64,000 nucleotides of DNA from a virus. Of the stretch, positions 9-59,010 are shown piece after piece; position 1 is the first letter of the stretch, and each line of letters starts with the position of its first letter. Location: the IMG/VR virus record IMGVR_UViG_3300045988_163435, positions 30,425 through 94,424 of that record. One strand, given 5' to 3'. The notes under the pieces are model-generated. The model was not told the origin of the DNA. It ran no database searches and saw nothing but the letters and a program-made list of their open reading frames with translations. The translations under genes and the position numbers were made by a program.

Positions 9-3000
9 ATGGCAAAGCTGTTTTCGTTTTATTTGAATTTGTTGCAGAATGATCCAGCGGCAAAGACCAAAGGTTATCTAAAGAATCAATACAGTGACGA
101 CATTGACTTCTCTAAAATGTCTCGCAAGGATATTCTGATGATTCCGCGATTCGCCAGCGATCTTATGTATACATCTGTTAGGCAACATCTTGAGAACGCG
201 CGTGTCATGCTCTCAGATCCAGGGCTTATCGCCGAAATGGATTTGTTTCTCGCCAATTATGATACAATGGTAGAGCTCGCAAGCAAGCAGCTTATCAAGA
301 ACGAACATATGTATATTACTGTTGATGGGAAGCTCATGGAAGAGGAGGAATCGACAGAGGATGTTGAGGGTAATGATTCGCAGGATGATGGTTCACCAGA
401 GGCGAATGAGGCCGGTGAGGTTGAGATGATTTATGGCGAAACAAAACTACATCAATCGGCTATCAAGGCGGTCTCTCTTGATATAAAGACAATTCTATCT
501 ACAATCCGCGAATCAACTGACGATGGTCAGTACTTTGTTGACGAGTATGGATTATGGGATTTCATGGATTACAGCACAGTAGCGTCAAGCGTCCTTAAAT
601 GGACTCAGGGAACAACGTCAAAATCGGAGTTTTTAGCCGCACTTAGGGAACACGCTAAGTCAACACCTTGGCTAAGGGATGTTCTTGCAATGGTGGACGT
701 TTATGCACCAAATATAATACCTACAAAGATAACTTATGAACGCTCGTCTTCCCTATATAGGAATTTCGCTAAGTCAGAACTACCATTCTATTCATCAAGA
801 CTTGTACGTGGAAATGATGGTAATCTTGTAATGAAAACTATCATGGAGAATACCGGCAAGACGGCCAATTATATTCTTACAAGACTTATGGCTGATTATG
901 AAAAGGGTAACGCTCCAATATTCAAGAACAATAGGCTTGATATTTTTGTCAAGGGCAAAAATGCCAGAGGAGAAGACTTTGCAATATCGAACATACTCAA
1001 CGTAACAAGCAAGAATGTTTCGACATCTGTTGTCAGAGAGCTTATGGATAATGATTTTTTCAAAAGCAGCGAATGGAATGACATTGATTCTATCATAGAT
1101 TATGACGAGGATTATGATCCATACTTCACTGATGAAAAGAATCCCATTGCAAAACTTTATTCAGCTATTGAAAAATTTGGCATTAAGGTAAACAAGAAAA
1201 AATTTGCGTCATTATTTGCCGGGGATAACTTAAAGTCATCATTCGAGGAGACTAGATTCGCCAATATAGCTCAACTAACTTATAAGATAGCAAAGCTTAT
1301 TAGTAATGGTGAGAACGACGCTCGCGAGGCAAGCACTAAATATAAACCATTGGATCCGAGTAACGAAAACAACGTTATATATTTAATGCGAAACCTTCTT
1401 GAAAAGGTTTATCAAAACTCTGACGAAAGTGTTGATCCTAGCTGCTATGTTAACGGTAAGATGTATTATAGCTACCAATATCCTACAACTATGCAGAAAC
1501 TACTTGCCAAACTGTCAAACAGAGTCGGCAAGACAAACGCTGAGTATCTTGATTGGATGAATGATGAGTTTGGCCGCAGCATATGGTTCTATATTCCAGG
1601 AGATACTGATTTTGATGAAGGACATTGGAACCTTAAATGGCTTGAAAGACTTGCTAATGATCCGTCGTCAAGGGATGCACTACAATTCATGGTAAAGATT
1701 GCATCAAATGGCATTGGTTATGCTGACATGGGAGACCAATCATATAAATTGTCAATATTATCTGATTATTTCTTTGACAATAATGGAGAATTTGCCATAT
1801 ATAGGACGCCTATCGCATCAGATAAAAGCACATATGAGGCGGTTAAATTTCTTAGAATTAAAGACAAAGATCAATACACTCAAGAATTGATTGAACAGGC
1901 ACACGATATATTCATGCAAGAATTAATGCGTGCCAAAAGCGTGTTTGATTATCACTTTAGGGGCGAAAAAAACGGGCACATTGACAAGTTTGACATTAAG
2001 CTTAAAGGAAATAATGCCAAGATGGATGCTATTGTCATGGACAAATATGGCCATGGAATTGACATAAAGACGTCTGATGTGATGAATAACGGCAAATATA
2101 TATATAATGGTACCGGTGCGTCATTCCACATGATACCTGCTGTTGTTCATATGATGCAGACTGATGCTGATTTTGCCCAAAAGATTGTTGATGTAATCTT
2201 TAATAACAGAAAACTTGATGACTCTCTCGCAAATATGTTTGAGGAGAAATTCAGGGAGCACATGAAAGAGGTCGTTGAACATGAAAAACAATCATTCGCT
2301 GATTCCGGAGTATTTGAGCAGGAACCTTATCAAGTATATGACGAATATGAGGACAGAGTTGTATGGACCAAGAGATATAAATATGTTGATTGGATCATAA
2401 GACAACTTAATGGTGGGAAAGAAGTTCTTGGAGCAAAGGCTGACGAGCTGCTTGACGCGGCGATTGAAGAGTTTGTATACAATAACATGCTGGCGCAATG
2501 GAATATCGTTGAGATAACAACAACTGATATGGCATTCTATGGAACAATAGAAAACTTTTCAAAACGTAACGCACAGCAACACGCTTCAGGTATGCCATTC
2601 GATGCAGAGGCCGTTGTATTTGTTGACGGAAATCCAATTCGTGTGAGTGATGGCAAGATAAGAAACACAGTAATAGCGGATAACATTATATCATCTCATT
2701 CCGCTGATCAGATAAAGATAGCTCTTGATATGCTTGCTGAAAGAACCACCGATCCTGTCGCAAAGGCTAACATTAAGGCATCCATACCAATGATTTCTTC
2801 ACAGTATCGCGAGACAAATACCGCTGACGGTCAGGCATACGTGTCACTTACCGGTCTTCGTAAACAGATGGTTATGGCTGGCACGTGGGACATGAATGTG
2901 CACGAGCCGATATATCAAAGATTTATCAACGGAACGCCGACTGATGATGACTTGATGTTTGTGTTTAATAATCCGCAGAAACCATTTGGTACATCTAATA

Positions 3001-4370
3001 TTTGGCGAAATAGAGGCGGAGATACAATGCCTGATGTTCGTGTACCTACGCAGTTTAAGAACTCTGAAGTACTTCTCGCGTTCGCAGGAGCGCTTGAAGC
3101 GAATGTTGGTCTTGATTCTCAGTTGGCAGCCTTGTATAGATTTATGGAGGACTCACATTATACTGGAAGGATAGTACATGGCGGCAGAGTTGTTAATCCT
3201 GGAACATACAGGCAAGATGGCATTGATTCAATCCAGTTTGAATCTTGCGTAAAGGTTGGTCTTAACAATAAATCAGATGTCAATAATTTGTCTCCAATTG
3301 ATACATATAATGCGCTAAGAAAGGCCGTATATAATTCAGACGGAACATATAATCGCGATAACATTAACGAGTATGGCATTGAGGGATATGTTACACAGCA
3401 GGAAGTTCCGTTCCATTTTTATAACCACAAGATTCAGATTGGTTCACAGATGGCTGTAATTGCCGTTAATGATGTAAGCGACACGGCTATGCTTGATGAT
3501 CCTGGTAGTGGCAAACAAATTACTGGAAAGGAAATGAAGACGCGATACAATCACGCGTTCGCAGAGCTTATCAGTAATGCCGCAAACAGAATGCTTGGAG
3601 AGCTTGGAATGACAAGGAAAAACACTTCATCAAGAGACATAGCTCTCAACAAGTCACTTTCAAGAATGATGCAGCAAAACGTCATGAGTGGAACCAAATA
3701 CAGTATTGACATGTTACGTGCAGTTTCTCTTCATGGAGGTTCTATGTCGGTCTCTCCTGAAAACGAAATGCTGTCGGATGCTGTTCAGTCGATGCTTGGC
3801 TCTAGCTTTAGAAAAGCCATCTATAAGATATTTTTCAATGGCGGACAAACAGTACAGACGTCAAACTGGGGACGCAGTACAGATCTTGATTTGCGCTTTA
3901 AGGACAACAATGGCGGGCTTCTCATGAAATATAATGACTTTTGTAAGGCAAATAACCTTGATGCATATAATGGTAATGAACCGAATAAGGATGCTATTGA
4001 GGCGTATAACCAATATGTTCGTGAAAATCAAGCAGGGTTTGCCTATATGGAGACAATGCAGTCTATACCAAACTCAAACGTCATGTCTTATCTGACACAT
4101 ATCGATCCGGACAATAGTGGAAAACGTGTGTTTTATAAGTATCCTGCCGGACATCCAAAGGCAGGTCAGCCTTGCTTAAATGTACAGGATTTGGCAGAAC
4201 TGTTTGATGTTCATATTCCGGAGAAGCTACTCAAGTGCATATATTATCGTATTCCTACGCAGTTGAAGTCATTCATAATGCCTTGTATGATTACTGAATT
4301 TACATTACCTGGATCAGGTGATGCATCGGCTTACCCGTTAATACTTACAGTGATTAACGATTCAGACTTT
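9..4370 (+). CDS. virion-packaged RNA polymerase-like giant protein (crAss-like vRNAP), exon 1; 5' end may lie upstream of the window
   Basis: Long ORF 9..4391 with no in-frame stop between the window start and the ATG at 9. The frame ends ...VINDSDF at 4370. Joined to 5254 (DIDKGN...) it recreates DFDID, a DxDxD metal-binding motif of the kind described for crAss-like virion RNAPs. The spliced size of ~2382 aa fits that family. Confidence 0.6.
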
Positions 4371-5253
4371 AAACAATATTGGAGTCTTTAAATTGTGTTA
4401 ACTGCTGGAAACCCTTATTGACTTGTCATCAATATGGAAATCAGCAGCCAAGGCAACTGAAATGTTGCAAGGTTCAACGACTAATTAAATCATATTTAAG
4501 AACATACGTATATCGTTATGAAAACAAAAATAACCAAAGAAAGCAGAAATTTGCTTATAGGAATGCTATTAGGTGATGGGACCATCTGTAGCAACAATGT
4601 CTATAAATTATGCCATTCAATAGAACAGGAAGACTATTTAAAATGGAAAATTAAACTTCTTAATGAAAATGGAATTCGTAACAACGGATTAAAATATTAC
4701 ACAAGTTCTTGTGGATATAATATTGGAAAAACCGTTTGTTATACACAATTAAATATTATTCCTTTTATAAAAGTTCTTCGCAGAGTGTGTTATAAAAGTA
4801 AAAAGATAATTGGAAATAGAAAATTATTAAACAGACTTAGTGCACAAGAGATAGCTATATGGTACATGGATGATGGGCATATAAATATTCGTGTTAATCA
4901 CGGAAGACCATGTGGATTTTATATAAAAATAAGTACTTGCGAGCCAAAGAGCGAAGTGCAAACCATAATAGATTACTTTAGGGAAGTTTGGAATATTAAT
5001 TTTTATATGATCCACGAAGGTAAAAAAGAAGATAGCTACTCACTTTGTTGCGGAACAAAAGAAGGATTAAAATTTATAGACATAATAAAACCATATGTAT
5101 CGCAGGTTCCATCGATGATACATAAAATAACATATGATTTAACACAAAGGAAAAAACCTTTGTGAGTACACTTAAGCGTGGAAATGCACAACACTGCTTA
5201 GCAGTGAAGATATAGTCTATTCCATGAGAAATAAATAACTTATGGTAGTAAAG
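4371..5253 (+). mobile_element. group I self-splicing intron (883 nt) with intron-encoded LAGLIDADG endonuclease
   Basis: P1: exon AGACTTT (4364-4370) pairs with GGAGTCT (4381-4387), giving U.G at the splice site. P10: CAATATT (4374-4380) pairs with the first 7 nt of exon 2, GATATTG. P4: CTGCTGG/TCAGCAG. P5 hairpin: CCTTATTGA..TCAATATGG. P6: GCAAC-TGAAAT-GTTGC. R element GGTTCAACGACTAAT (GACTA at 4479-4483) pairs with S element AGATATAGTC (TAGTC at 5213-5217). P9: CCATGAG..CTTATGG. The intron ends in G (5253). Confidence 0.85.
4518..5165 (+). CDS. LAGLIDADG homing endonuclease (double-motif), encoded inside the vRNAP intron
   Basis: 215-aa ORF with two dodecapeptide motifs, LLIGMLLGDGTI and IAIWYMDDGHI. 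It is AT-rich relative to the flanks and sits between the R and S core elements of the intron (a P8-loop position). Confidence 0.9.
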   Translation: MKTKITKESRNLLIGMLLGDGTICSNNVYKLCHSIEQEDYLKWKIKLLNENGIRNNGLKYYTSSCGYNIGKTVCYTQLNIIPFIKVLRRVCYKSKKIIGNRKLLNRLSAQEIAIWYMDDGHINIRVNHGRPCGFYIKISTCEPKSEVQTIIDYFREVWNINFYMIHEGKKEDSYSLCCGTKEGLKFIDIIKPYVSQVPSMIHKITYDLTQRKKPL

Positions 5254-8040
5254 GATATTGACAAGGGAAACATGCTTTTCTATGACGCCAGAGTAAGTAC
5301 TATTGGTGGCAAACCAACATTGGCTGGCGACTATAGTATTGAAAAATACAATAAGGCAGATGGCTCAAAAAATCGAGAAGCTGCATTAAGAAACGAGATG
5401 CTTGATATGCAGTGGGCTGCAATGACTGGAGACGACGCGTTAAGGCAACAGTTTAGACCTGGTAACTTCGATATTATGGACCAGACATCATATGAGCTGG
5501 AGTTATATAGATTTGGCTTATCAAGAGAATATGTTGAACAAATGACACCAAAGCAAAGAGTGGCCAAATATGAAGAATTATCATACGACCCTAGATGGTC
5601 AGACATTTCTTTGATGTCAACTGCTGCGAGACTTAAAAAAGCATGTATGAACGCCAAAAAGCTTATCGCCATGTCAGCTGTTCAAGAAATCGCTCACGAC
5701 GTATTTAGTATGATGACTGGTCCTGGACGATTCAGAATAGCGCAGAACGATATTAGACCGATGAATATTGCCGGTTTAGATATAGGTGAGAGTGGTTCTG
5801 CATATCTTGATGAATTGGTTGACTCTGAAGGAACACTACAGAGCATTAATCTTGGTATGCTTGTTGGTGCGGCAGCAGATGGAGTTAAGAAGCCTGTGCT
5901 TGCCAGAACAAATATAGGCATGTACACAAATAAGATATACACACTATTGCTTAGATATGGGGCTACTCCAAGGCAGGCGATGTTGTTTGTGACACAGCCG
6001 ATAATGCGAGAAGTTACGGAAGCTTATGATAACGCGTCAAATAATGGATTTGCCGATGTGCAGAGAATAATTAGAAATCTCGAGCAGACAATAAATCCTA
6101 AGGGCGGCCTGTATAACACGTATAATTCCAAAACCAATAAAGATGTGCAGACGCTAATACTGGATGAGTACGATCTTGTATCGAGATTGATAGATGATAA
6201 GAATTTTGATGCAGCTTCATATATCGACAATGAAAATTCGCCAATGTTACAAGTTGACATGAGAATTCTTGCCGCACTTAGAGAACTTGACAACGCGGTT
6301 AATAGTCTTGAAGGACTCAACCAATTCTCAAGGTTTACCTCTATAGTCAATGGAGAATCACCGTCATTAGCGAAGTCTATCGAAAAGGAGTCTCGTAGAG
6401 AAAAATTCCTTATTGATCAAGCTGGAATTAAACCTGCATTCAACGTTGTTAAATTGGATGAGCAGAATAATCCTACAAAGGTAAAAACACTTGAAATTAG
6501 TGACATAAAATCACAAATACCGTTCATTGGCGCACGTATTGAATCTCAGGAAGCGCTACATAACGCGTTGCTTGAGGTGCAGTCGTCATATAATTCTCAT
6601 GCGTTCAGAACCGCGGCAAAAATTGTTGCCAACCTTTGCGGTAGAGATTACGCCAACGAGACTATCAATAGATCGGTTCATAAGGCAATGGCGATATACA
6701 AGATGATCAATGGTACCGATATTAAGACATACGGAACTGGAATGCCATCTCATATTTACGGTGTGTTTAATCCAAATACTCGATCACAAAAAGAGTTTGA
6801 TGAGAATGTTGACTTCTATTATAAGAACTTTGCCGGTTATTATAATGAAATGATAACAAAACATATGGATGAACTTTATGGAAATAAATTCATAGAATCC
6901 ATTATTCAAATGGATGCTGATAAATATATGCCAGTACCATATTTGAAAACATCTCTTAATAATCTTGACGAGGACGGCAGACAGGCTATTATGGATGACT
7001 GGAGTGCGCTTGTTAGGAGCGATAACGAAGAAATCCAGATGCTTGGTGTTCAACTGGGGATTTATTTCGCGCTACGAAGCAATATGAGATATAGCCCAAG
7101 TACACCGTATCATTTGATGCCTGTTGATGTAATAAAGTCTATTCCGAATCTTGACAGGCTTGATCGTATGGAGGCGGTCAGAAATCCTCAGATCGATCTG
7201 AATGAGTTTTTAGGATTGTATATTTTGAACAACACAAATCAGCCTGGTCTTGTACCTAGTGTTGACTTGCAATATTTGTCACAAGGCGATCCTACATTTG
7301 GAGCAGCTGTGATAGATTTTAATGCGTCGAATAAAGACTTGTCAGACGGAAAGTCAGGTTACAATCCTATATCAAATATTGGAAGATTCTATGTAAGACC
7401 ATTTAGTGAAACAGAAGGTTCTGACAGAATGGCAAAATTATCTAAGGCAATTGGGCTAAAGGTTAGAAAGGATAGCATTACTGTCTCAAGACCGGTTGTA
7501 AAGTCAGGTAATAACATAATCATGTTGACAAACAGAGATCTTGCGTTCAAAGTAAATGGTTTTGAGATAGGCAAAGATATGGAAGTGATGTTCAGAACGC
7601 TAACTCCTAAGGGGGTACGTAACGGAGTGTCTGAATACTTTGGCGACATTCTAGATGATGGTGTTTATGGAGATTTTATTGCCGAGGAGAATCCAGAGAC
7701 CGAAGAGAATCCAAATGACGTCATTACTGATGAGCAAGGATTCACTCCAAGCGGTCTTAGTTTCACACCAAGCTTCGCCACGGGAAGTATTGAGCAACAT
7801 TCTCCAGCAATGGAAGGAACGACAGAGTTGTCATTAAGCGCACTTGGTATCAGCCAAGGATCTCTTAGTAAAAAATTTGTTAGACAGCGGGTTGCCAATG
7901 GTCTTAATATCAACATGTCTGACACAGAGCTGTTGAAAAAGTTTGGTTTTAACACAGACGACGCGACAATAACATCGGAAGGCCGTAAGAAAGTGGCCGA
8001 TCTCCTCAGAGAGGAGCTTAATAAATTAAATTTGTGCTAA
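5254..8040 (+). CDS. virion RNA polymerase-like giant protein, exon 2 (928 aa)
   Basis: The frame is open from the intron 3' end. The first residues DIDKGNMLFYD complete the DFDID motif. The ATG at 5242 (MVVK) lies inside the intron P9/3' tail and is probably not a real start. Confidence 0.6.
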   Translation, partial: DIDKGNMLFYDARVSTIGGKPTLAGDYSIEKYNKADGSKNREAALRNEMLDMQWAAMTGDDALRQQFRPGNFDIMDQTSYELELYRFGLSREYVEQMTPKQRVAKYEELSYDPRWSDISLMSTAARLKKACMNAKKLIAMSAVQEIAHDVFSMMTGPGRFRIAQNDIRPMNIAGLDIGESGSAYLDELVDSEGTLQSINLGMLVGAAADGVKKPVLARTNIGMYTNKIYTLLLRYGATPRQAMLFVTQPIMREVTEAYDNASNNGFADVQRIIRNLEQTINPKGGLYNTYNSKTNKDVQTLILDEYDLVSRLIDDKNFDAASYIDNENSPMLQVDMRILAALRELDNAVNSLEGLNQFSRFTSIVNGESPSLAKSIEKESRREKFLIDQAGIKPAFNVVKLDEQNNPTKVKTLEISDIKSQIPFIGARIESQEALHNALLEVQSSYNSHAFRTAAKIVANLCGRDYANETINRSVHKAMAIYKMINGTDIKTYGTGMPSHIYGVFNPNTRSQKEFDENVDFYYKNFAGYYNEMITKHMDELYGNKFIESIIQMDADKYMPVPYLKTSLNNLDEDGRQAIMDDWSALVRSDNEEIQMLGVQLGIYFALRSNMRYSPSTPYHLMPVDVIKSIPNLDRLDRMEAVRNPQIDLNEFLGLYILNNTNQPGLVPSVDLQYLSQGDPTFGAAVIDFNASNKDLSDGKSGYNPISNIGRFYVRPFSETEGSDRMAKLSKAIGLKVRKDSITVSRPVVKSGNNIIMLTNRDLAFKVNGFEIGKDMEVMFRTLTPKGVRNGVSEYFGDILDDGVYGDFIAEENPETEENPNDVITDEQGFTPSGLSFTPSFATGSIEQHSPAMEGTTELSLSALGISQGSLSKKFVRQRVANGLNINMSDTELLKKFGFNTDDATITSEGRKKVADLLREELNKLNLC

Positions 8041-34070: not shown

Positions 34071-34085
34071 AAAAACTTCTTTCTT

Positions 34086-34126
34086 AAAATAATAAACGCG
34101 GAGAGGGCATCAACCCACCCCGCGTT
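34086..34126 (-). terminator. intrinsic terminator after the last MCP exon
   Basis: Minus strand: AACGCGG-GGTGGGTTGATGCCCTCT-CCGCGTT (7-bp outer stem plus an inner GGG/CCC) followed by TATTATTTT. It lies 41 nt after the TAA at 34168-34170. Confidence 0.7.
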
Positions 34127-34167
34127 GTATATTAAAATATGTTATCCTTAATCTTCTATTAAATCAA

Positions 34168-34322
34168 TTACTCCGAAAGGATTGACGGAATGACTGACAT
34201 TGTTCTGGTTGGATCAAGTACACAAACTCCGAGAGTAGCCATACGGTGCATAACCGCGGCATCCTCATCAAAACTCATGAACTGATTACCGATTCGACCA
34301 GTAAAGGGATCGCGAAGGCCCC
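34168..34322 (-). CDS. major capsid protein, exon 4 (C-terminal 50 aa + stop)
   Basis: By-eye translation of the minus strand gives (W)GLRDPFTGRIGNQFMSFDEDAAVMHRMATLGVCVLDPTRTMSVIPSILSE*. There is no upstream start codon. It begins right after a G that ends an intron homologous to intron 1. Confidence 0.75.
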
Positions 34323-35093
34323 CGATTGTGTTACCTCGCAAGCTTTTTATCTCGCGAATCTTTAGATTTCTTATCTCTAAAGTCCAGCGTACATTTTCAT
34401 CTCAAAAGAGATGCCGGATACTCTTGGTGGAATTATATTCTTTTTATTAAAAGTTTCATCCACTACGCGTTACAATGATAATCTTTTTAAGGATTATTTT
34501 ATCTCGGTATTCTCTAAGAATTTTTTACGAATATCATTACATCTTTCGCCATAACAAATTTTCCTTATAGTTCCAAATGGCCTATTAAGAATCATTGATA
34601 TTTTCTTTGGCGTAAGATGTTTGATAAAAAACATTTCATAAATATTAAATAGTTCTTTATCAGTAAAACTTATGCCGTTATGTTTCAACCCAATTAAATA
34701 AGCGTGACGTTGTTGCTGCTCATCAGAAGACCATTCGAGATTATATAAAGCATTGTTAAGCTTATTGCCATCTTTGTGGTTCACTGTTCTGTAATTATTT
34801 GGATTTTCTATAAACGCTTCAGCCAATATTCGATGTAGATATCTATAGTAATATTTGTTGTCTTTGAACAATCTTACTTGAATATATCCACTATTAGACT
34901 TTCTGCGTCCAATTGACATAAAGTTTCCATTTTTAGTTAATATTCTTCCATCTGAATAAACTGTGTATTCAGGAAATTCTTTTATATTCTTAAATAATTC
35001 CATAATATATGGTTTATAAAATAATATTAATAGAGTTCACCGATTTTACCCGGTTATTCACTAACGAATCACTTCGTTAGGCAGCAAGTTCAT
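34323..35093 (-). mobile_element. group I-like intron 3 of the MCP gene (771 nt) carrying an HNH endonuclease ORF
   Basis: 5' splice site after CAGU, which pairs with GCUG (U.G). The 3' end AACACAATCG aligns with the intron 1 end AACATAATTG. About 180 nt of core are shared with intron 1, with compensatory changes in three helices. Confidence 0.7.
34494..35003 (-). CDS. HNH homing endonuclease (NUMOD4/HNH_3-like), intron-encoded
   Basis: The 169-aa ORF shows YTVYSDGRI...GYIQVRL...RYLHRILAEAF...VNHKDGNKLNNALYNLEWSS, the classic phage HNH endonuclease pattern. It is AT-rich. Confidence 0.85.
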   Translation of the reverse strand: MELFKNIKEFPEYTVYSDGRILTKNGNFMSIGRRKSNSGYIQVRLFKDNKYYYRYLHRILAEAFIENPNNYRTVNHKDGNKLNNALYNLEWSSDEQQQRHAYLIGLKHNGISFTDKELFNIYEMFFIKHLTPKKISMILNRPFGTIRKICYGERCNDIRKKFLENTEIK

Positions 35094-36291
35094 ACTGATA
35101 GCCTCGATACTCTGGTTGTCCCTTAATCTGACACTTGAAGATATTTGGCTGATCAGGTGTGCCAATATAGAAAATGTCAAATCTGTAAGACTGTGCTACT
35201 CCACCTTCAGGATGCAGTACCTTGTTACGAACAGGATCATCATACATTGGAAGTACGTTAAGCTTAACCTTAACTCCCAATGGAGCGATCCACTCTGTTA
35301 CCTGATAGTCAGTGAGTGACACTGCGTTACCAGGAGCAAAGTTAGCACTGGTCTTGTTGAAATATGAAGGGTTCTGGGTTGACATCATAGGCATCCAACC
35401 AGAAGCGGTATTCTTAGCCTCACGGTTAAAAATAAGCGCACCCTTTTCTCCAGTGTTGATTACAAAAGTGCGATCACCGAAATCAAGCTTAGCAGCAGAC
35501 AGCTCATAAAGAGCGTCGAGAATCAGCTTCATGACAGAATGAGTATCGTTGTAATACATGATATTACCATACTCCATCTGCTCGAAGAGACCAGCTCCTG
35601 TCTTGATGGCATTTCCACTCTTTCCGATGTTGAGATATTCTCCATTAGCGTTTCTATTGGAACGACCAAACAGAATAGCGTTGTTTTTATAGTCGCTAAA
35701 GGTCTGCTCGAACTCCCACTCAACATTGTGCATCCACATGTTTGATGTCGTGTGCTCAATCTTCCCACCAGCAGTCTCCTTTACAATAGGAATACCGACA
35801 GCAAGTTTCTTATTAAGCATCGAACCTGGAACCTTGTGCTGAAGACGAATGGTAGACCACTCGTTGCGCATAGATACCGGAGTCGAGAACGAAATATCGC
35901 CAACCTTCCTTGACAGCTCACGCTCGACGAACGCAGCTTCAATAGAGAATTTCTCTCCTGCAAGAAGTCTCTCGGCAGGCACTCCGTTGACGTTCCCTCC
36001 GGCAAGTTCGACCTTGTATATGGCCTGACTTCCCTCCATGCGAGGATCGCCAAGAATTCTGAACTGATAAATCTCATTCAAGTTGCCTACTACATACTCG
36101 CCATCTGAGCACCAATCCTCGTTGAACACAAGATAGAACGGAGTGGTATTCGCACCGACCATTCCAGATGCTGATGTCACAGGAGTTCCATCTTCAAGAC
36201 GAGCCTCTACAAGAGGTACGTTTCTACGGCTTGAACCAATAACCTCCCACGTATACTCTGAATCCAAATATGTTATTCTGCTTTTACGCAA
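35094..36291 (-). CDS. major capsid protein, exon 3 (399 codons + 1 nt)
   Basis: The track ORF 35077..36291 begins at TTG, not ATG. It directly follows the intron 2 3' end (P9 hairpin CATTACG-GAAA-CGTAATG then AG). Its 404-aa size is too short for a crAss-like MCP unless it is joined to the flanking exons. Confidence 0.75.
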
Positions 36292-36537
36292 CTCATTACG
36301 TTTCCGTAATGTTCAGACTATACCATCATCTCTTTTTTCAAGAGATGGATCTATTATAGTCGTTGAACCTTCATTAATAACATTAATGCTTGGCTGCTGA
36401 TTGGCCAATCTGCAAAATTTTTAAACATTCACGTTTACCTTTACAGGTTGCGTTGTAGTTTTTGCAGCTCTAAGGCGTTTCCAGCAATTTAAGATCTTTG
36501 CTTTATCATATCGCTATGATAAGGGACAATTCATTTT
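36292..36537 (-). mobile_element. canonical ORF-less group I intron 2 of the MCP gene (246 nt)
   Basis: On the minus strand: P1 GGAU|AAAAUGAAUU-GUCC. P2: TTATCATA-GCGA-TATGATAA. P element: AAATTGCTGGAAACG. Q element: AATCAGCAGCCAAG. P6: CATTAAT-GTT-ATTAATG. R element: GGTTCAACGACTATAAT. P8: CATCTCTT-GAAAAA-AGAGATG. S element: GGTATAGTCTG. P9 has a GAAA loop. The intron ends in G. Confidence 0.8.
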
Positions 36538-36681
36538 ATCCTCGAATTCGTGAATAGGGAATGTATTAAGGAATGTATCCCAACTCTTCCCCCTATAATA
36601 AGCAAGCAACTGAACCATTACGTTAGTTGCCTTCTGTGGCGCAAGTTGATAAATAGCGCCCAAGTGATTTTCTTTAGTTAG
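36538..36681 (-). CDS. major capsid protein, exon 2 (48 aa)
   Basis: By-eye translation gives LTKENHLGAIYQLAPQKATNVMVQLLAYYRGKSWDTFLNTFPIHEFED. The open frame is bounded by TAA upstream and TAG downstream and has no start codon. Confidence 0.7.
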
Positions 36682-36951
36682 CAATTATGTTATCCTAAAG
36701 GCTTTTTATCCTCTAGTTCTTACACTTTACCATTGTGCAAGTCCAGCATATATTTTCATCAATTCTGTGAATATTTTTAATTGAATTAATGTTGGGCACT
36801 CTTGGAAGAATTATATTCTATTCATAGTTTCATCTTCTATGCGTTACGCTGTACATAAGTATTATCCTATGTCTTAGCACGGTATTATCCTTTATTATTG
36901 GAGGACTTCACCGTTTTTGCCCAATTTTACAAGAGCTTAACTTGTAAGTCA
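36682..36951 (-). mobile_element. compact group I-like intron 1 of the MCP gene (270 nt, ORF-less)
   Basis: P1: exon AAGGGU pairs with GCUCUU (terminal U.G). P10: GUUA pairs with exon-2 UAAC. P3-like: TTGGGCA/TGCCCAA. P8-like: CATTAATTC..GAATTGATG. The intron ends AACATAATTG. It is a paralog of intron 3. Confidence 0.65.
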
Positions 36952-37005
36952 ACCCTTCCAATGAGAAAAGCCTACCATCTGATACTTACCGAGCAATCCG
37001 GCCAT
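36952..37005 (-). CDS. major capsid protein, exon 1 (18 aa, MAGLLGKYQMVGFSHWKG)
   Basis: The ATG at 37005 lies 42 nt downstream of the scaffold gene stop. The frame hits TGA immediately after GGT, which is the proposed 5' splice site. Confidence 0.6.
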
Positions 37006-58859: not shown

Positions 58860-58931
58860 TTGCGGGGGCAGGGATCGAACCTGCGACCTCCAGATTATGA
58901 GCCTGGCGAGATACCACTTCTCCACCCCACA
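58860..58931 (-). tRNA. tRNA-Met (anticodon CAU; elongator or Ile2-type)
   Basis: By-eye cloverleaf on the minus strand: acceptor UGUGGGG/CCCCGCA, D arm GAGA-AGUGGUA-UCUC, anticodon arm CCAGG-CUCAUAA-UCUGG, T arm GCAGG-UUCGAUC-CCUGC. It lacks the three consecutive G-C pairs expected of an initiator. Confidence 0.85.
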
Positions 58932-58937
58932 ATATTG

Positions 58938-59010
58938 ATGCCGGTACCGGACTCGAACCGATATCCTTGGATTACAAAACCAAGATGCTAGCCCATTATA
59001 CCAACCGGCA
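58938..59010 (-). tRNA. tRNA-Thr (anticodon UGU) with irregular D arm
   Basis: Acceptor UGCCGGU/ACCGGCA, T arm AUCGG-UUCGAGU-CCGGU, anticodon arm UUGGU-UUUGUAA-UCCAA (U.U at 31:39). I could not draw a clean 4-bp D stem, although GG is present in the D loop. Confidence 0.6.

What the first reader, a model, noticed from the sequence alone, without database searches (positions are those of the whole stretch)
34323..36951. MCP introns 1 and 3 are paralogs of a compact intron family, one copy having acquired an HNH endonuclease
Introns 36682..36951 and 34323..35093 share blocks on the minus strand: GGGYAAAANCGGTGAA, GTAACGCRTAG..GATGAAACT, AGAATATAATTC..CCAAGAGT, GATGAAAATRTAYGCTGGACTT, GAGRATAAAAAGC and AGGWTAACAYAATYG.

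Three helices show compensatory changes between the copies. The P3-like helix is TTGGGCA/TGCCCAA versus CCGGGTA/TATCCGG. The P8-like helix is CATTAATTC..GAATTGATG versus CATCTC..GAGATG. A hairpin after GCTGGA is CTTGCAC..GTGTAAG versus CTTTAGA..TCTAAAG.

Intron 3 additionally has a perfect P2 hairpin (CTAACGAA-GTGA-TTCGTTAG) and the 510-nt HNH ORF, which is inserted where intron 1 has a short hairpin (CGGTGAA-GTCCT..AGGAT-AATACCG).

I could not find the classical R/S (GACUA/UAGUC) P7 pairing that is obvious in the other two introns of this window. The family is therefore either a divergent group I subgroup or something less standard.
Basis: seen in the sequence. Interest (0 to 1): 0.7.

Follow-up and report, generated by a model that had tools for sequence, protein, structure and literature searches.

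The report
Two ordinary group I capsid-gene introns

Summary
Regions 36951-36682 and 35093-34323 (minus strand) are introns: removing them gives a capsid protein collinear with intron-less crAss-like capsid proteins. They share the reported blocks and compensated helices.

They are not an unusual ribozyme. Both fold as canonical group I introns, with a U.G 5' splice site, P3 to P9.1, and a 3'-terminal G. P7 is present as GCAUA/UAUGC in intron 1 and GCGUA/UACGC in intron 3. It has the usual bulged base and an invariant G-C guanosine-binding pair.

In 106 non-redundant relatives P7 is paired in 100% of sequences and appears in six compensated spellings, including the classical GACUA/UAGUC. RNAalifold recovers it independently.

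The family is large: at least 159 distinct copies were fetched from Bacillota, Cyanobacteria, their phages and other crAss-like phages. Rfam's group I model misses it (0 of 20 copies reach threshold).

The two introns are only 65% identical, and each has closer relatives elsewhere, so they are not recent paralogs. The HNH ORF is I-HmuI-like and sits in loop L5. Other family members carry unrelated endonucleases there, so gain of the ORF is plausible but not from intron 1.

Verdict: new members of a known kind; low interest.

The parts
36952..37005 (-). Capsid gene exon 1 (ATG 37005-37003; ends ...AAGGGU)
   Evidence: Spliced translation is collinear with intron-less capsid proteins
36682..36951 (-). 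Intron 1: 270-nt group I intron without an ORF; 3'-terminal G at 36682
   Evidence: Junction HWKG|LTKEN. Rfam RF00028 34.3 bits, E 2.6e-6, below the 50-bit threshold. Family HMM 169 bits. RNAfold z-score -4.75
36931..36937 (-). Intron 1 internal guide sequence AGCUCUU. It pairs with exon AAGGGU plus the first intron U (P1, with U.G at the splice site). The adjacent GUUA (36941-36938) pairs with 3'-exon UAAC (36680-36677) to form P10
   Evidence: Read from the sequence. The copies at the same site in L005 and L006 keep P1 (GGCCCUU, AGCCCUU), and L005 keeps P10 through a compensatory change (GUCA/UGAC)
36792..36924 (-). Intron 1 P3: UUGGGCA (36924-36918) with UGCCCAA (36798-36792). It encloses P4 ACGGUG/UACCGU (36914-36909 / 36884-36879), P5 GUCCU/AGGAU (36906-36902 / 36891-36887) and P6 ACAUAGG/CUUAUGU (36872-36866 / 36859-36853)
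   Evidence: In the family counts, 22 of the 23 pairs of P3-P6 show changes on both sides. RNAfold recovers all four helices
36745..36844 (-). Intron 1 P7: 5' strand A[C]GCAUA (36844-36838, C36843 bulged) with 3' strand UAUGCU (36750-36745). G36842-C36746 is the predicted guanosine-binding pair
   Evidence: 100% paired in 106 sequences, 4 of 6 pairs with changes on both sides, G-C invariant. Predicted independently by RNAalifold
36805..36837 (-). Intron 1 P7.1: GAAGA/UCUUC (36837-36833 / 36809-36805), directly abutting P7. It encloses a small inner hairpin CUA/UAG (36827-36825 / 36820-36818) and the conserved UGAAAC and GAAUAUAAU loop segments
   Evidence: 97-100% paired, every pair with changes on both sides
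36757..36791 (-). Intron 1 P8: CAUUAAUUC/GAAUUGAUG
36695..36741 (-). Intron 1 P9 CUUGCAC/GUGUAAG (36741-36735 / 36725-36719) and P9.1 CUAGAGG/CCUUUAG (36716-36710 / 36701-36695) with the near-invariant loop AUAAAAAG, followed by the tail GAUAACAUAAUUG
   Evidence: 98% and 99% paired
36538..36681 (-). Capsid gene exon 2
36265..36537 (-). Intron 2: a classical group I intron, outside the finding. Boundary corrected here
   Evidence: Rfam RF00028 88.9 bits at 36547-36294. Ending the intron at 36292 leaves a 9-aa insertion relative to homologs, so the true 3' end is G36265. Its tail AGAAUAACAUAUUUG resembles the family tail
35094..36264 (-). Capsid gene exon 3
34323..35093 (-). Intron 3: 771-nt group I intron of the same family carrying an HNH ORF; 3'-terminal G at 34323
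   Evidence: Junction RGYQW|GLR. Family HMM 128 bits for the 3' two-thirds
35061..35097 (-). Intron 3 P1: exon CAGU plus intron A (35097-35093) with UGCUG (35086-35082), U.G at the splice site. P2: CUAACGAA-GUGA-UUCGUUAG (35080-35061)
   Evidence: Read from the sequence. P1 is short (5 bp) and inferred, not tested by covariation
34494..35003 (-). HNH homing-endonuclease ORF (169 aa) in loop L5. P5 is CUCUA (35035-35031) with UAGAG (34516-34512). The last codons of the ORF run through P5', P4' (34509-34504) and into the 5' strand of P6; stop codon UAA at 34496-34494
   Evidence: PF13392 27.7 bits against a 24.8-bit cut-off. phrog_59 E 2.3e-38. PDB 1U3E E 4.7e-7. Coordinates
34386..34470 (-). 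Intron 3 P7: A[C]GCGUA (34470-34464) with UACGCU (34391-34386). Relative to intron 1, A-U becomes G-C at the third stacked pair
34336..35053 (-). Remaining intron 3 core helices: P3 CCGGGUA/UAUCCGG (35053-35047 / 34420-34414); P4 UCGGUG/UACCGA (35043-35038 / 34509-34504); P6 AUAAUC/GAUUAU (34497-34492 / 34483-34478); P7.1 GUGGA/UCCAC (34463-34459 / 34431-34427); inner hairpin CUUUU/AAAAG (34453-34449 / 34444-34440); P8 CAUCUC/GAGAUG (34413-34408 / 34403-34398); P9 CUUUAGA/UCUAAAG (34382-34376 / 34366-34360); P9.1 UCGCGAG/CUUGCGA (34357-34351 / 34342-34336)
34168..34322 (-). Capsid gene exon 4 (stop codon included)

Best explanation
Introns 1 and 3 of the capsid gene are self-splicing group I introns of the IA type: the group I core plus a P7.1 extension between P7 and P3', and a P9.1 extension.

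Inferred splicing mechanism (standard for the class). Free guanosine docks on the invariant G-C pair of P7 and attacks the phosphate after the exon-terminal U, which sits in a U.G wobble in P1. The 3'-terminal G (36682 or 34323) then takes the same pocket. The freed 5' exon, still held by the guide sequence and aligned with the 3' exon by P10, attacks the 3' splice site. The result is a continuous capsid mRNA.

Origin. The two introns belong to one very large family found in Bacillota, Cyanobacteria, their phages and crAss-like phages. They reached, or have occupied, their two capsid-gene sites separately rather than by a recent duplication.

Intron 3 endonuclease. Intron 3 carries an I-HmuI-like HNH endonuclease gene in loop L5. 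It most likely cuts or nicks intron-less capsid alleles of co-infecting relatives and drives homing. Because the ORF's 3' end overlaps P5', P4' and P6, translating it and folding the ribozyme should be mutually exclusive.

Shown here: the exon junctions, the secondary structure with covariation, family membership and the endonuclease family. Inferred: the catalytic chemistry, homing, and the coupling between translation and folding.
For: Junctions are exact against intron-less homologs. The 5' exons end in U opposite a G of an intron guide sequence, and both introns end in G.

A 60-pair structure (P3-P9.1) was counted on a MAFFT alignment of 106 non-redundant family cores:
- 87.4% of cells are paired, against 63.1% when shuffled (0 of 500 shuffles reach the observed value) and 29-43% when the partners are slid by 1-3 columns.
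- 54 of 60 pairs show changes on both sides.
- The covariation score is 0.579, against 0.169 shuffled and 0.07-0.13 slid.

P7 is 100% paired. Its outer pair is A-U 67, G-C 34, C-G 5; it has a bulged base and an invariant G-C. The inner spellings seen are GCAUA, GCGUA, GCGCA, GCUUA, GAGUA and the classical GACUA, each with the matching partner strand.

RNAalifold, given no structure, predicts P4, P5, P7, P7.1, P8, P9 and P9.1, with 29 of 35 pairs compensated. RNAfold of intron 1 gives z = -4.75 and recovers P3-P6, P8, P9 and P9.1. Rfam's group I model aligns to intron 1 end to end at E 2.6e-6.

Homologs sit in split genes next to endonuclease ORFs: RecD-like helicase, DNA polymerase, tape measure and capsid genes.

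The HNH ORF matches PF13392, phrog_59 and PDB 1U3E.
Against: Neither intron reaches Rfam's gathering score: 34.3 against 50 bits for intron 1, and no hit for intron 3.

P1 of intron 3 is only 5 bp and its P10 is weak.

In the family alignment P3, P6 and P8 are paired in only 66-78% of cells. I attribute this to MAFFT misplacing variable loops and to a register shift in one subfamily, but I did not re-align to prove it.

The structure was drawn from intron 1, so the slid-partner control is somewhat biased in its favour.

No splicing experiment or RNA data is available. Self-splicing without a protein cofactor is inferred from the class.
Confidence: 0.9

Rival explanations
1. The two introns are true intragenomic paralogs: intron 1, or its immediate ancestor, duplicated into a second capsid-gene site in this phage lineage, and that copy later acquired the HNH gene.
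For: Both sit in the same gene and share the family core and four exact sequence blocks. The endonuclease ORFs found in L5 of other members are unrelated to this one, so endonuclease-gene gain events do occur in this family.
Against: The cores are only 65% identical over 209 well-filled columns. 44 of 104 other members, many from Bacillota phages, are closer to intron 1 than intron 3 is, and 15 are closer to intron 3 than intron 1 is. The best relatives of intron 1 (82% and 80%) occupy the identical capsid-gene site in bajarodcaudo virus 1 and cr128_1. The two guide sequences and target sites are unrelated.
Confidence: 0.07
2. The elements are a non-canonical or degenerate ribozyme class: a group I-like fold that has lost the guanosine site and depends on a protein or uses another chemistry.
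For: The classical R/S sequence is absent. Scores are below the Rfam threshold. The pair stacked under the G-binding pair is C-G in 104 of 106 members, not the A-U of the classical GACUA/UAGUC spelling.
Against: The G-C pair, the bulge and the helix length of P7 are kept in all 106 members. Copies with the classical GACUA/UAGUC spelling belong to the same family. The U.G splice site, the 3'-terminal G and the P3/P7 pseudoknot are all present. The capsid gene is essential, so the introns must be removed efficiently.
Confidence: 0.03

Closest known systems
Subgroup IA2 phage group I introns, for example the Staphylococcus phage Twort orf142 introns (record AF132670; the IA2 assignment and crystal structure 1Y0Q are from my own knowledge, and the sequence I recalled was confirmed at 98% identity by BLAST)
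   Same: Phage structural-gene host. Length of about 250 nt. U.G 5' splice site. P4-P5 region of the same type (GGGAAGCCUAAG...AUGGUAAUCC...). J8/7-P7 block ...AUAUAGUCUGAAC against ...AUAUAUGCUGGAC. P9 with a GNRA-type loop. An extra 3' hairpin followed by GUAACAUAAUUG, against GAUAACAUAAUUG here.
   Different: Sequence similarity is only local and weak (nhmmer E 0.009 to above 1). By my own parse of the sequence, Twort has two side-by-side hairpins (P7.1, P7.2) between P7 and P3'. Here there is one P7.1 stem abutting P7 with a small nested hairpin. P7 is GACUA/UAGUC in Twort and GCAUA/UAUGC or GCGUA/UACGC here.
The intron at the same capsid-gene site in crAss-like phage cr128_1 (Mahlunavirus rarus, MT774392) and in bajarodcaudo virus 1 (PQ006092)
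   Same: Identical insertion site (after HWKG), 75-77% nucleotide identity over the full length, the same P1 and P10 logic, and the same variant P7.
   Different: In those public records the RNA is not annotated; only capsid-gene fragments and 'intron associated endonuclease' ORFs are. They carry other introns at other capsid-gene sites and none at the site of intron 3.
Group I introns reported in capsid and other core genes of crAss-like phages (Yutin et al. 2021, PMC7886860)
   Same: Several group I introns, some encoding endonucleases, split the capsid gene of a crAss-like phage.
   Different: That paper found introns through their protein domains, in the Delta and Zeta groups, and states that the alpha-gamma group lacks such insertions. 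The closest capsid-protein relatives of this window are classified in Steigviridae (crAss001-like). The ORF-less intron 1 would be invisible to a protein-based search.
I-HmuI, the HNH nicking endonuclease of the Bacillus phage SPO1 DNA-polymerase intron (PDB 1U3E; the entry's identity as I-HmuI is from my own knowledge)
   Same: The N-terminal region and HNH motif align over residues 5-94 (E 4.7e-7). Similar size (169 against 174 aa). Encoded inside a phage group I intron.
   Different: The alignment shown has many mismatches over the matched stretch. The C-terminal DNA-binding half is not detectably similar, and its target is a capsid gene. Activity and cut site are untested.

Membership tests
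Group I intron | The 5' exon ends in U, paired as U.G with an internal guide sequence inside the intron (P1) | tested here: met
   Intron 1: AAGGGU|U with AGCUCUU. Intron 3: CAGU|A with UGCUG. Junctions are fixed by alignment to intron-less capsid proteins. P1 is kept in the orthologous copies in L005 and L006.
Group I intron | The last intron nucleotide is G | tested here: met
   G36682 and G34323.
Group I intron | Conserved core P3-P4-P5-P6-P7-P8 with a P3/P7 pseudoknot, supported by covariation | tested here: met
   60 pairs, 87.4% of cells paired, 54 pairs with changes on both sides, beating shuffled and slid controls. RNAalifold agrees for P4, P5, P7, P7.1, P8, P9 and P9.1.
Group I intron | P7 with a bulged nucleotide and a conserved G-C pair (the guanosine-binding site) | tested here: met
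   G-C in 106 of 106 sequences. One bulged base (C or A) lies between it and an outer pair that covaries A-U, G-C, C-G.
Group I intron | Classical R/S sequence GACUA/UAGUC | tested here: not met
   GCAUA/UAUGC and GCGUA/UACGC are found instead. The classical spelling occurs in 2 of 106 aligned family members. This is a consensus sequence, not a structural requirement.
Group I intron | Score at or above the gathering threshold of Rfam RF00028 | tested here: not met
   Intron 1 scores 34.3 against 50 bits and intron 3 has no hit. 0 of 20 other family copies reach it, so this reflects model coverage rather than the RNA.
Group I intron | Guanosine-dependent self-splicing | not testable with these tools
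   Requires in vitro transcription and splicing.
Subgroup IA2 | Two hairpins, P7.1 and P7.2, between P7 and P3' (as stated in PMC4227781) | tested here: inconclusive
   An extension between P7 and P3' is present and covaries. It is one stem (P7.1) with a nested small hairpin, not two adjacent hairpins. Some members lack the inner hairpin and some add a second hairpin.
Subgroup IA2 | Extended domain 9 with P9.0, P9.1 and P9.2 (PMC4227781) | tested here: inconclusive
   P9 and one further hairpin (P9.1) are strongly supported at 98-99% paired. No P9.2 is present. P9.0 was not assessed.
HNH homing endonuclease (I-HmuI-like) | HNH domain above the curated threshold, plus similarity to a solved intron-encoded HNH enzyme | tested here: met
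   PF13392 27.7 against 24.8 bits. phrog_59 E 2.3e-38. 1U3E E 4.7e-7.
HNH homing endonuclease (I-HmuI-like) | Cleaves or nicks the intron-less allele near the insertion site | not testable with these tools
   Requires an enzyme assay on an intron-less capsid gene target.

The most novel reading that the evidence does not exclude
Introns 1 and 3 belong to a very large, sequence-coherent clade of bacterial and phage IA introns that has never been modelled as its own subgroup.

Features that define the clade:
- C-G rather than A-U stacked under the guanosine-binding pair.
- A P7.1 stem directly abutting P7, with conserved UGAA...GAAUAUAAU loop strands.
- A near-invariant AUAAAAAG loop in P9.1.
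- The tail GAUAACA-N-UUG.

Because Rfam's single group I model does not see this clade, hundreds to thousands of split genes in gut-phage, Bacillota and cyanobacterial genomes would remain mis-annotated.

My evidence shows the clade and the Rfam blind spot. It does not show that the literature or GISSD lacks it.
Probability: 0.3. Interest if true: 0.4.

Novelty: new member of a known kind. Interest (0 to 1): 0.2.

Why it matters
For this window, the result turns a capsid gene that looks broken into four pieces into one intact gene with exact splice junctions. It also removes the suggestion of an unusual ribozyme.

More generally, a large group I intron clade passes undetected through Rfam-based annotation: 0 of 20 copies reached threshold. 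ORF-less members such as intron 1 are also invisible to protein-domain searches of the kind used to find introns in crAss-like phages. Capsid, polymerase, helicase and tape-measure genes in gut-phage and Bacillota phage genomes can therefore be mis-called as fragments. A dedicated covariance model built from the alignment made here would fix that.

The six natural compensated spellings of P7 also form a ready-made mutational series around the guanosine-binding site.

Tried and rejected
1. megablast of the whole capsid locus against GenBank phages found only a 45-nt match to a Clostridioides phage, which turned out to be the conserved 3' domain.
2. Rfam scans of 10 homolog loci at the gathering threshold and at E <= 1e-3 returned nothing, not even the group I intron that phiCD211's depositors annotated next to a family copy. 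I therefore stopped using Rfam to recognise relatives.
3. The pattern TAGAATATAATNNNNNCCAMGAG found only 3 viral contigs. The looser GAATATAATNNNNNCCAMGAG in metagenomes returned 120 loci, of which only four distinct loci were real family members.
4. I first paired CAGCGU with AUGCUG as P7 of intron 1. I rejected this because intron 3 breaks it, whereas GCAUA/UAUGC changes to GCGUA/UACGC in a compensated way.
5. I considered the local hairpin CAUAG...CUAUG in intron 1, which RNAfold also draws, as P7.1. I rejected it because it uses the P7 strand and is not conserved. The covarying helix is GAAGA/UCUUC.
6. My first 3' end for intron 2 (36292) left a 9-aa insertion, so I moved it to 36265.
7. 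blastp of the HNH ORF against the endonuclease ORFs of six related introns found no homology.
8. Searching the Twort introns with the family HMMs gave only marginal local matches.
9. I did not build a covariance model. The 250-nt model was likely to exceed the calibration limit, and introns carrying ORFs, including intron 3, could not be given to it with the ORF removed.
Full report
**What is there**

The window comes from a crAss-like phage. The spliced protein encoded on the minus strand between 37005 and 34168 is 65-71% identical, end to end, to the major capsid proteins of cr85_1, DAC15 and crAss001, all classified in Steigviridae. It matches phrog_11589, major head protein.

Joining 37005-36952, 36681-36538, 36264-35094 and 34322-34168 gives a protein with no gap or insertion at the first and third junctions (HWKG|LTKEN and RGYQW|GLR).

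The middle intron is a textbook group I intron (Rfam RF00028, 88.9 bits). Its real 3' end is G36265, 27 nt beyond the simplest in-frame choice.

**Check of the observation**

Four of the six shared blocks occur exactly twice in the 64 kb window, once per intron, with zero matches expected by chance. The last two blocks are written one base too long for intron 3, but the regions are homologous. The P3-like, P8-like and post-GCUGGA helices are real and compensated. The P2 hairpin of intron 3 is real.

The 169-aa ORF is an HNH endonuclease: PF13392 above its cut-off, phrog_59, and PDB 1U3E at E 4.7e-7, which I know as I-HmuI. It sits in the loop of P5, the hairpin that is closed in intron 1. Its last codons run through P5', P4' and into P6.

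**The missing P7**

The helix is present. In intron 1 the block GUAACGCAUAG supplies A[C]GCAUA, which pairs with UAUGCU in the block AAAAUAUAUGCUGGAC. In intron 3 the same positions read A[C]GCGUA and UACGCU, a compensated A-U to G-C change.

To test this beyond two sequences I collected relatives:
- blastn found full-length homologs of intron 1 at the same capsid-gene site in cr128_1 and bajarodcaudo virus 1. It found partial homologs in 79 phage records, mostly phages of Staphylococcus, Clostridium, Clostridioides and Bacillus, lying in split helicase, polymerase and tape-measure genes next to endonuclease ORFs.
- A pattern taken from the conserved 3' domain hit at least 120 loci in bacterial genomes (Bacillota and Cyanobacteria above all) and at least 119 viral contigs.
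- A profile HMM of the 3' two-thirds of the intron found 173 full-length copies, 159 of them distinct.

Across these copies the P7 strands occur as GCAUA/UAUGC, GCGUA/UACGC, GCGCA/UGCGC, GCUUA/UAAGC, GAGUA/UACUC and the classical GACUA/UAGUC. The outer pair covaries A-U, G-C and C-G across a single bulged base.

**Formal counts**

I aligned 106 non-redundant cores (less than 92% identical to each other, with ORFs cut out of five of them) with MAFFT. I projected a 60-pair structure from intron 1, writing P7 as a pseudoknot. Results:

| Measure | Observed | Shuffled (500 shuffles) | Partners slid 1-3 columns |
|---|---|---|---|
| Cells paired | 87.4% | 63.1% (0 of 500 reach it) | 29-43% |
| Covariation score | 0.579 | 0.169 | 0.07-0.13 |

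54 of 60 pairs show changes on both sides. Pairing by helix:

| Helix | Cells paired |
|---|---|
| P7 | 100% (G-C 106 of 106) |
| P7.1 | 97-100% |
| P9.1 | 99% |
| P9 | 98% |
| P5 | 91% |
| P4 | 87% |
| P8 | 78% |
| P3 | 74% |
| P6 | 66% |

The lower values for P8, P3 and P6 coincide with places where MAFFT visibly shifts variable loops or one subfamily.

RNAalifold, given only the alignment, independently predicts P4, P5, P7, P7.1, P8, P9 and P9.1, with 29 of 35 pairs compensated. RNAfold of intron 1 alone recovers P3-P6, P8, P9 and P9.1, with z = -4.75.

**Splice-site helices**

In intron 1 the exon end AAGGGU plus the first intron U pairs with AGCUCUU (36937-36931), with U.G at the splice site. 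The adjacent GUUA pairs with the 3' exon UAAC to form P10.

The orthologous copies keep P1 with GGCCCUU and AGCCCUU. L005 keeps P10 through a compensatory change, GUCA/UGAC.

Intron 3 has a short P1 (CAGU|A with UGCUG) followed by P2. This part is inferred from one sequence.

**What kind of group I intron**

The extension between P7 and P3', together with the extra 3' hairpin, places the family in class IA. Reviews describe IA2 as having two hairpins P7.1 and P7.2 and an extended P9 (PMC4227781; PMC3984707).

Here the P7-P3' insert is a single stem abutting P7 with a small nested hairpin. I therefore leave the subgroup open.

The Twort IA2 introns resemble it in the P4-P5 region, in J8/7-P7, and in the P9 hairpins and tail. 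They are only marginally similar in sequence.

**Relationship of the two introns**

They are 65% identical over 209 well-filled columns. The nearest relatives of intron 1 are the same-site introns of other crAss-like phages, at 82% and 80%. 44 of 104 other members are closer to it than intron 3 is, and the nearest relative of intron 3 is a viral-contig copy at 71%. They are homologs within a family, not recent paralogs.

Endonuclease ORFs occur in L5 in several other members, upstream of P2 in one, and in L8 in another. The ORFs I compared are unrelated to the HNH of intron 3.

This fits independent invasion of introns by endonuclease genes. The direction of change for intron 3 was not demonstrated.

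**Why the family looked odd**

Rfam's one group I model gives intron 1 a score of 34.3 bits against a threshold of 50, and gives intron 3 nothing. It found none of the family copies in ten homolog loci. Of 20 further copies, only the one with the classical P7 spelling was found, at 37 bits. The apparent strangeness reflects the model's coverage and a consensus-sequence expectation, not the RNA.

**Prior knowledge**

Group I introns in capsid and other core genes of crAss-like phages were reported by Yutin et al. 2021. They were found through intron-encoded protein domains, in the Delta and Zeta groups. Public records such as cr128_1 already contain the intron 1 ortholog, though the RNA is not annotated. 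Intron splicing in phage capsid and tail genes is also described for mycobacteriophages (title).

**Verdict**

These are two new members of a known kind. Interest is low, apart from the practical point that this large clade escapes standard RNA annotation.

Noticed in passing
window 36265-36537 (-): The Rfam match to capsid-gene intron 2 ends at 36294, but alignment to homologs shows the intron runs to G36265 (273 nt). Its last 15 nt, AGAAUAACAUAUUUG, resemble the GAUAACA...UUG tail of the intron 1 and 3 family.
   Followed up: partly
window about 4392-5241 (+): A likely fourth group I intron splits a very large ORF (9-4391 and 5242-8040). It has the classical R element CAACGACTA at 4475, a 215-aa ORF at 4518-5165, and the S element GATATAGTCT at 5209. 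Rfam does not report it, even at E <= 0.01. The ORF between R and S may be why, but this was not tested.
   Followed up: partly
window 58860-59010 (-): Two adjacent tRNA genes (62.2 and 45.9 bits). Their anticodons were not examined.
   Followed up: no
window 34084-34161 (-): A GC-rich hairpin followed by a U-rich stretch (GCGGGGUGGGUUGAUGCCCUCUCCGCGUUUAUUAUUUU) lies just downstream of the capsid gene stop codon. It looks like an intrinsic terminator and produced a spurious weak L20-leader match.
   Followed up: no
L010 1370-1919 (Clostridium phage phiCD211, LN681537): A family intron ends at 1630. It is followed by a 23-nt mini-exon and then a classical group I intron (1654-1919), which is the only one the depositors annotated. 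These are two tandem introns between the ORFs annotated as minor tail protein and tail tape measure protein.
   Followed up: partly
L008 about 895-1147 and 1424-1658 (Clostridioides phage pCD1602_4): Two family copies lie about 280 nt apart, with near-identical 5' flanks (GCTAAACTTTTGGCGTGTTAATTAG...). This suggests repeated insertion into a repeated target.
   Followed up: no
L137-L256 (genome-contig hits): The 3'-domain motif AGAR-N6-GATAAAAAGC-N6-GATAACA is abundant in Bacillota and in filamentous Cyanobacteria (Nostoc, Microcoleus, Scytonema). It also occurs in metagenome-assembled genomes labelled archaeon, Gammaproteobacteria, Myxococcales and Rickettsiales. The host genes were not examined.
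   Followed up: no
L005 and L006 (bajarodcaudo virus 1; cr128_1): The capsid genes of these crAss-like phages hold further introns, including family members with classical or GAGUA-type P7, at sites different from intron 3 of this window. Intron content of the capsid gene therefore differs between related phages.
   Followed up: partly
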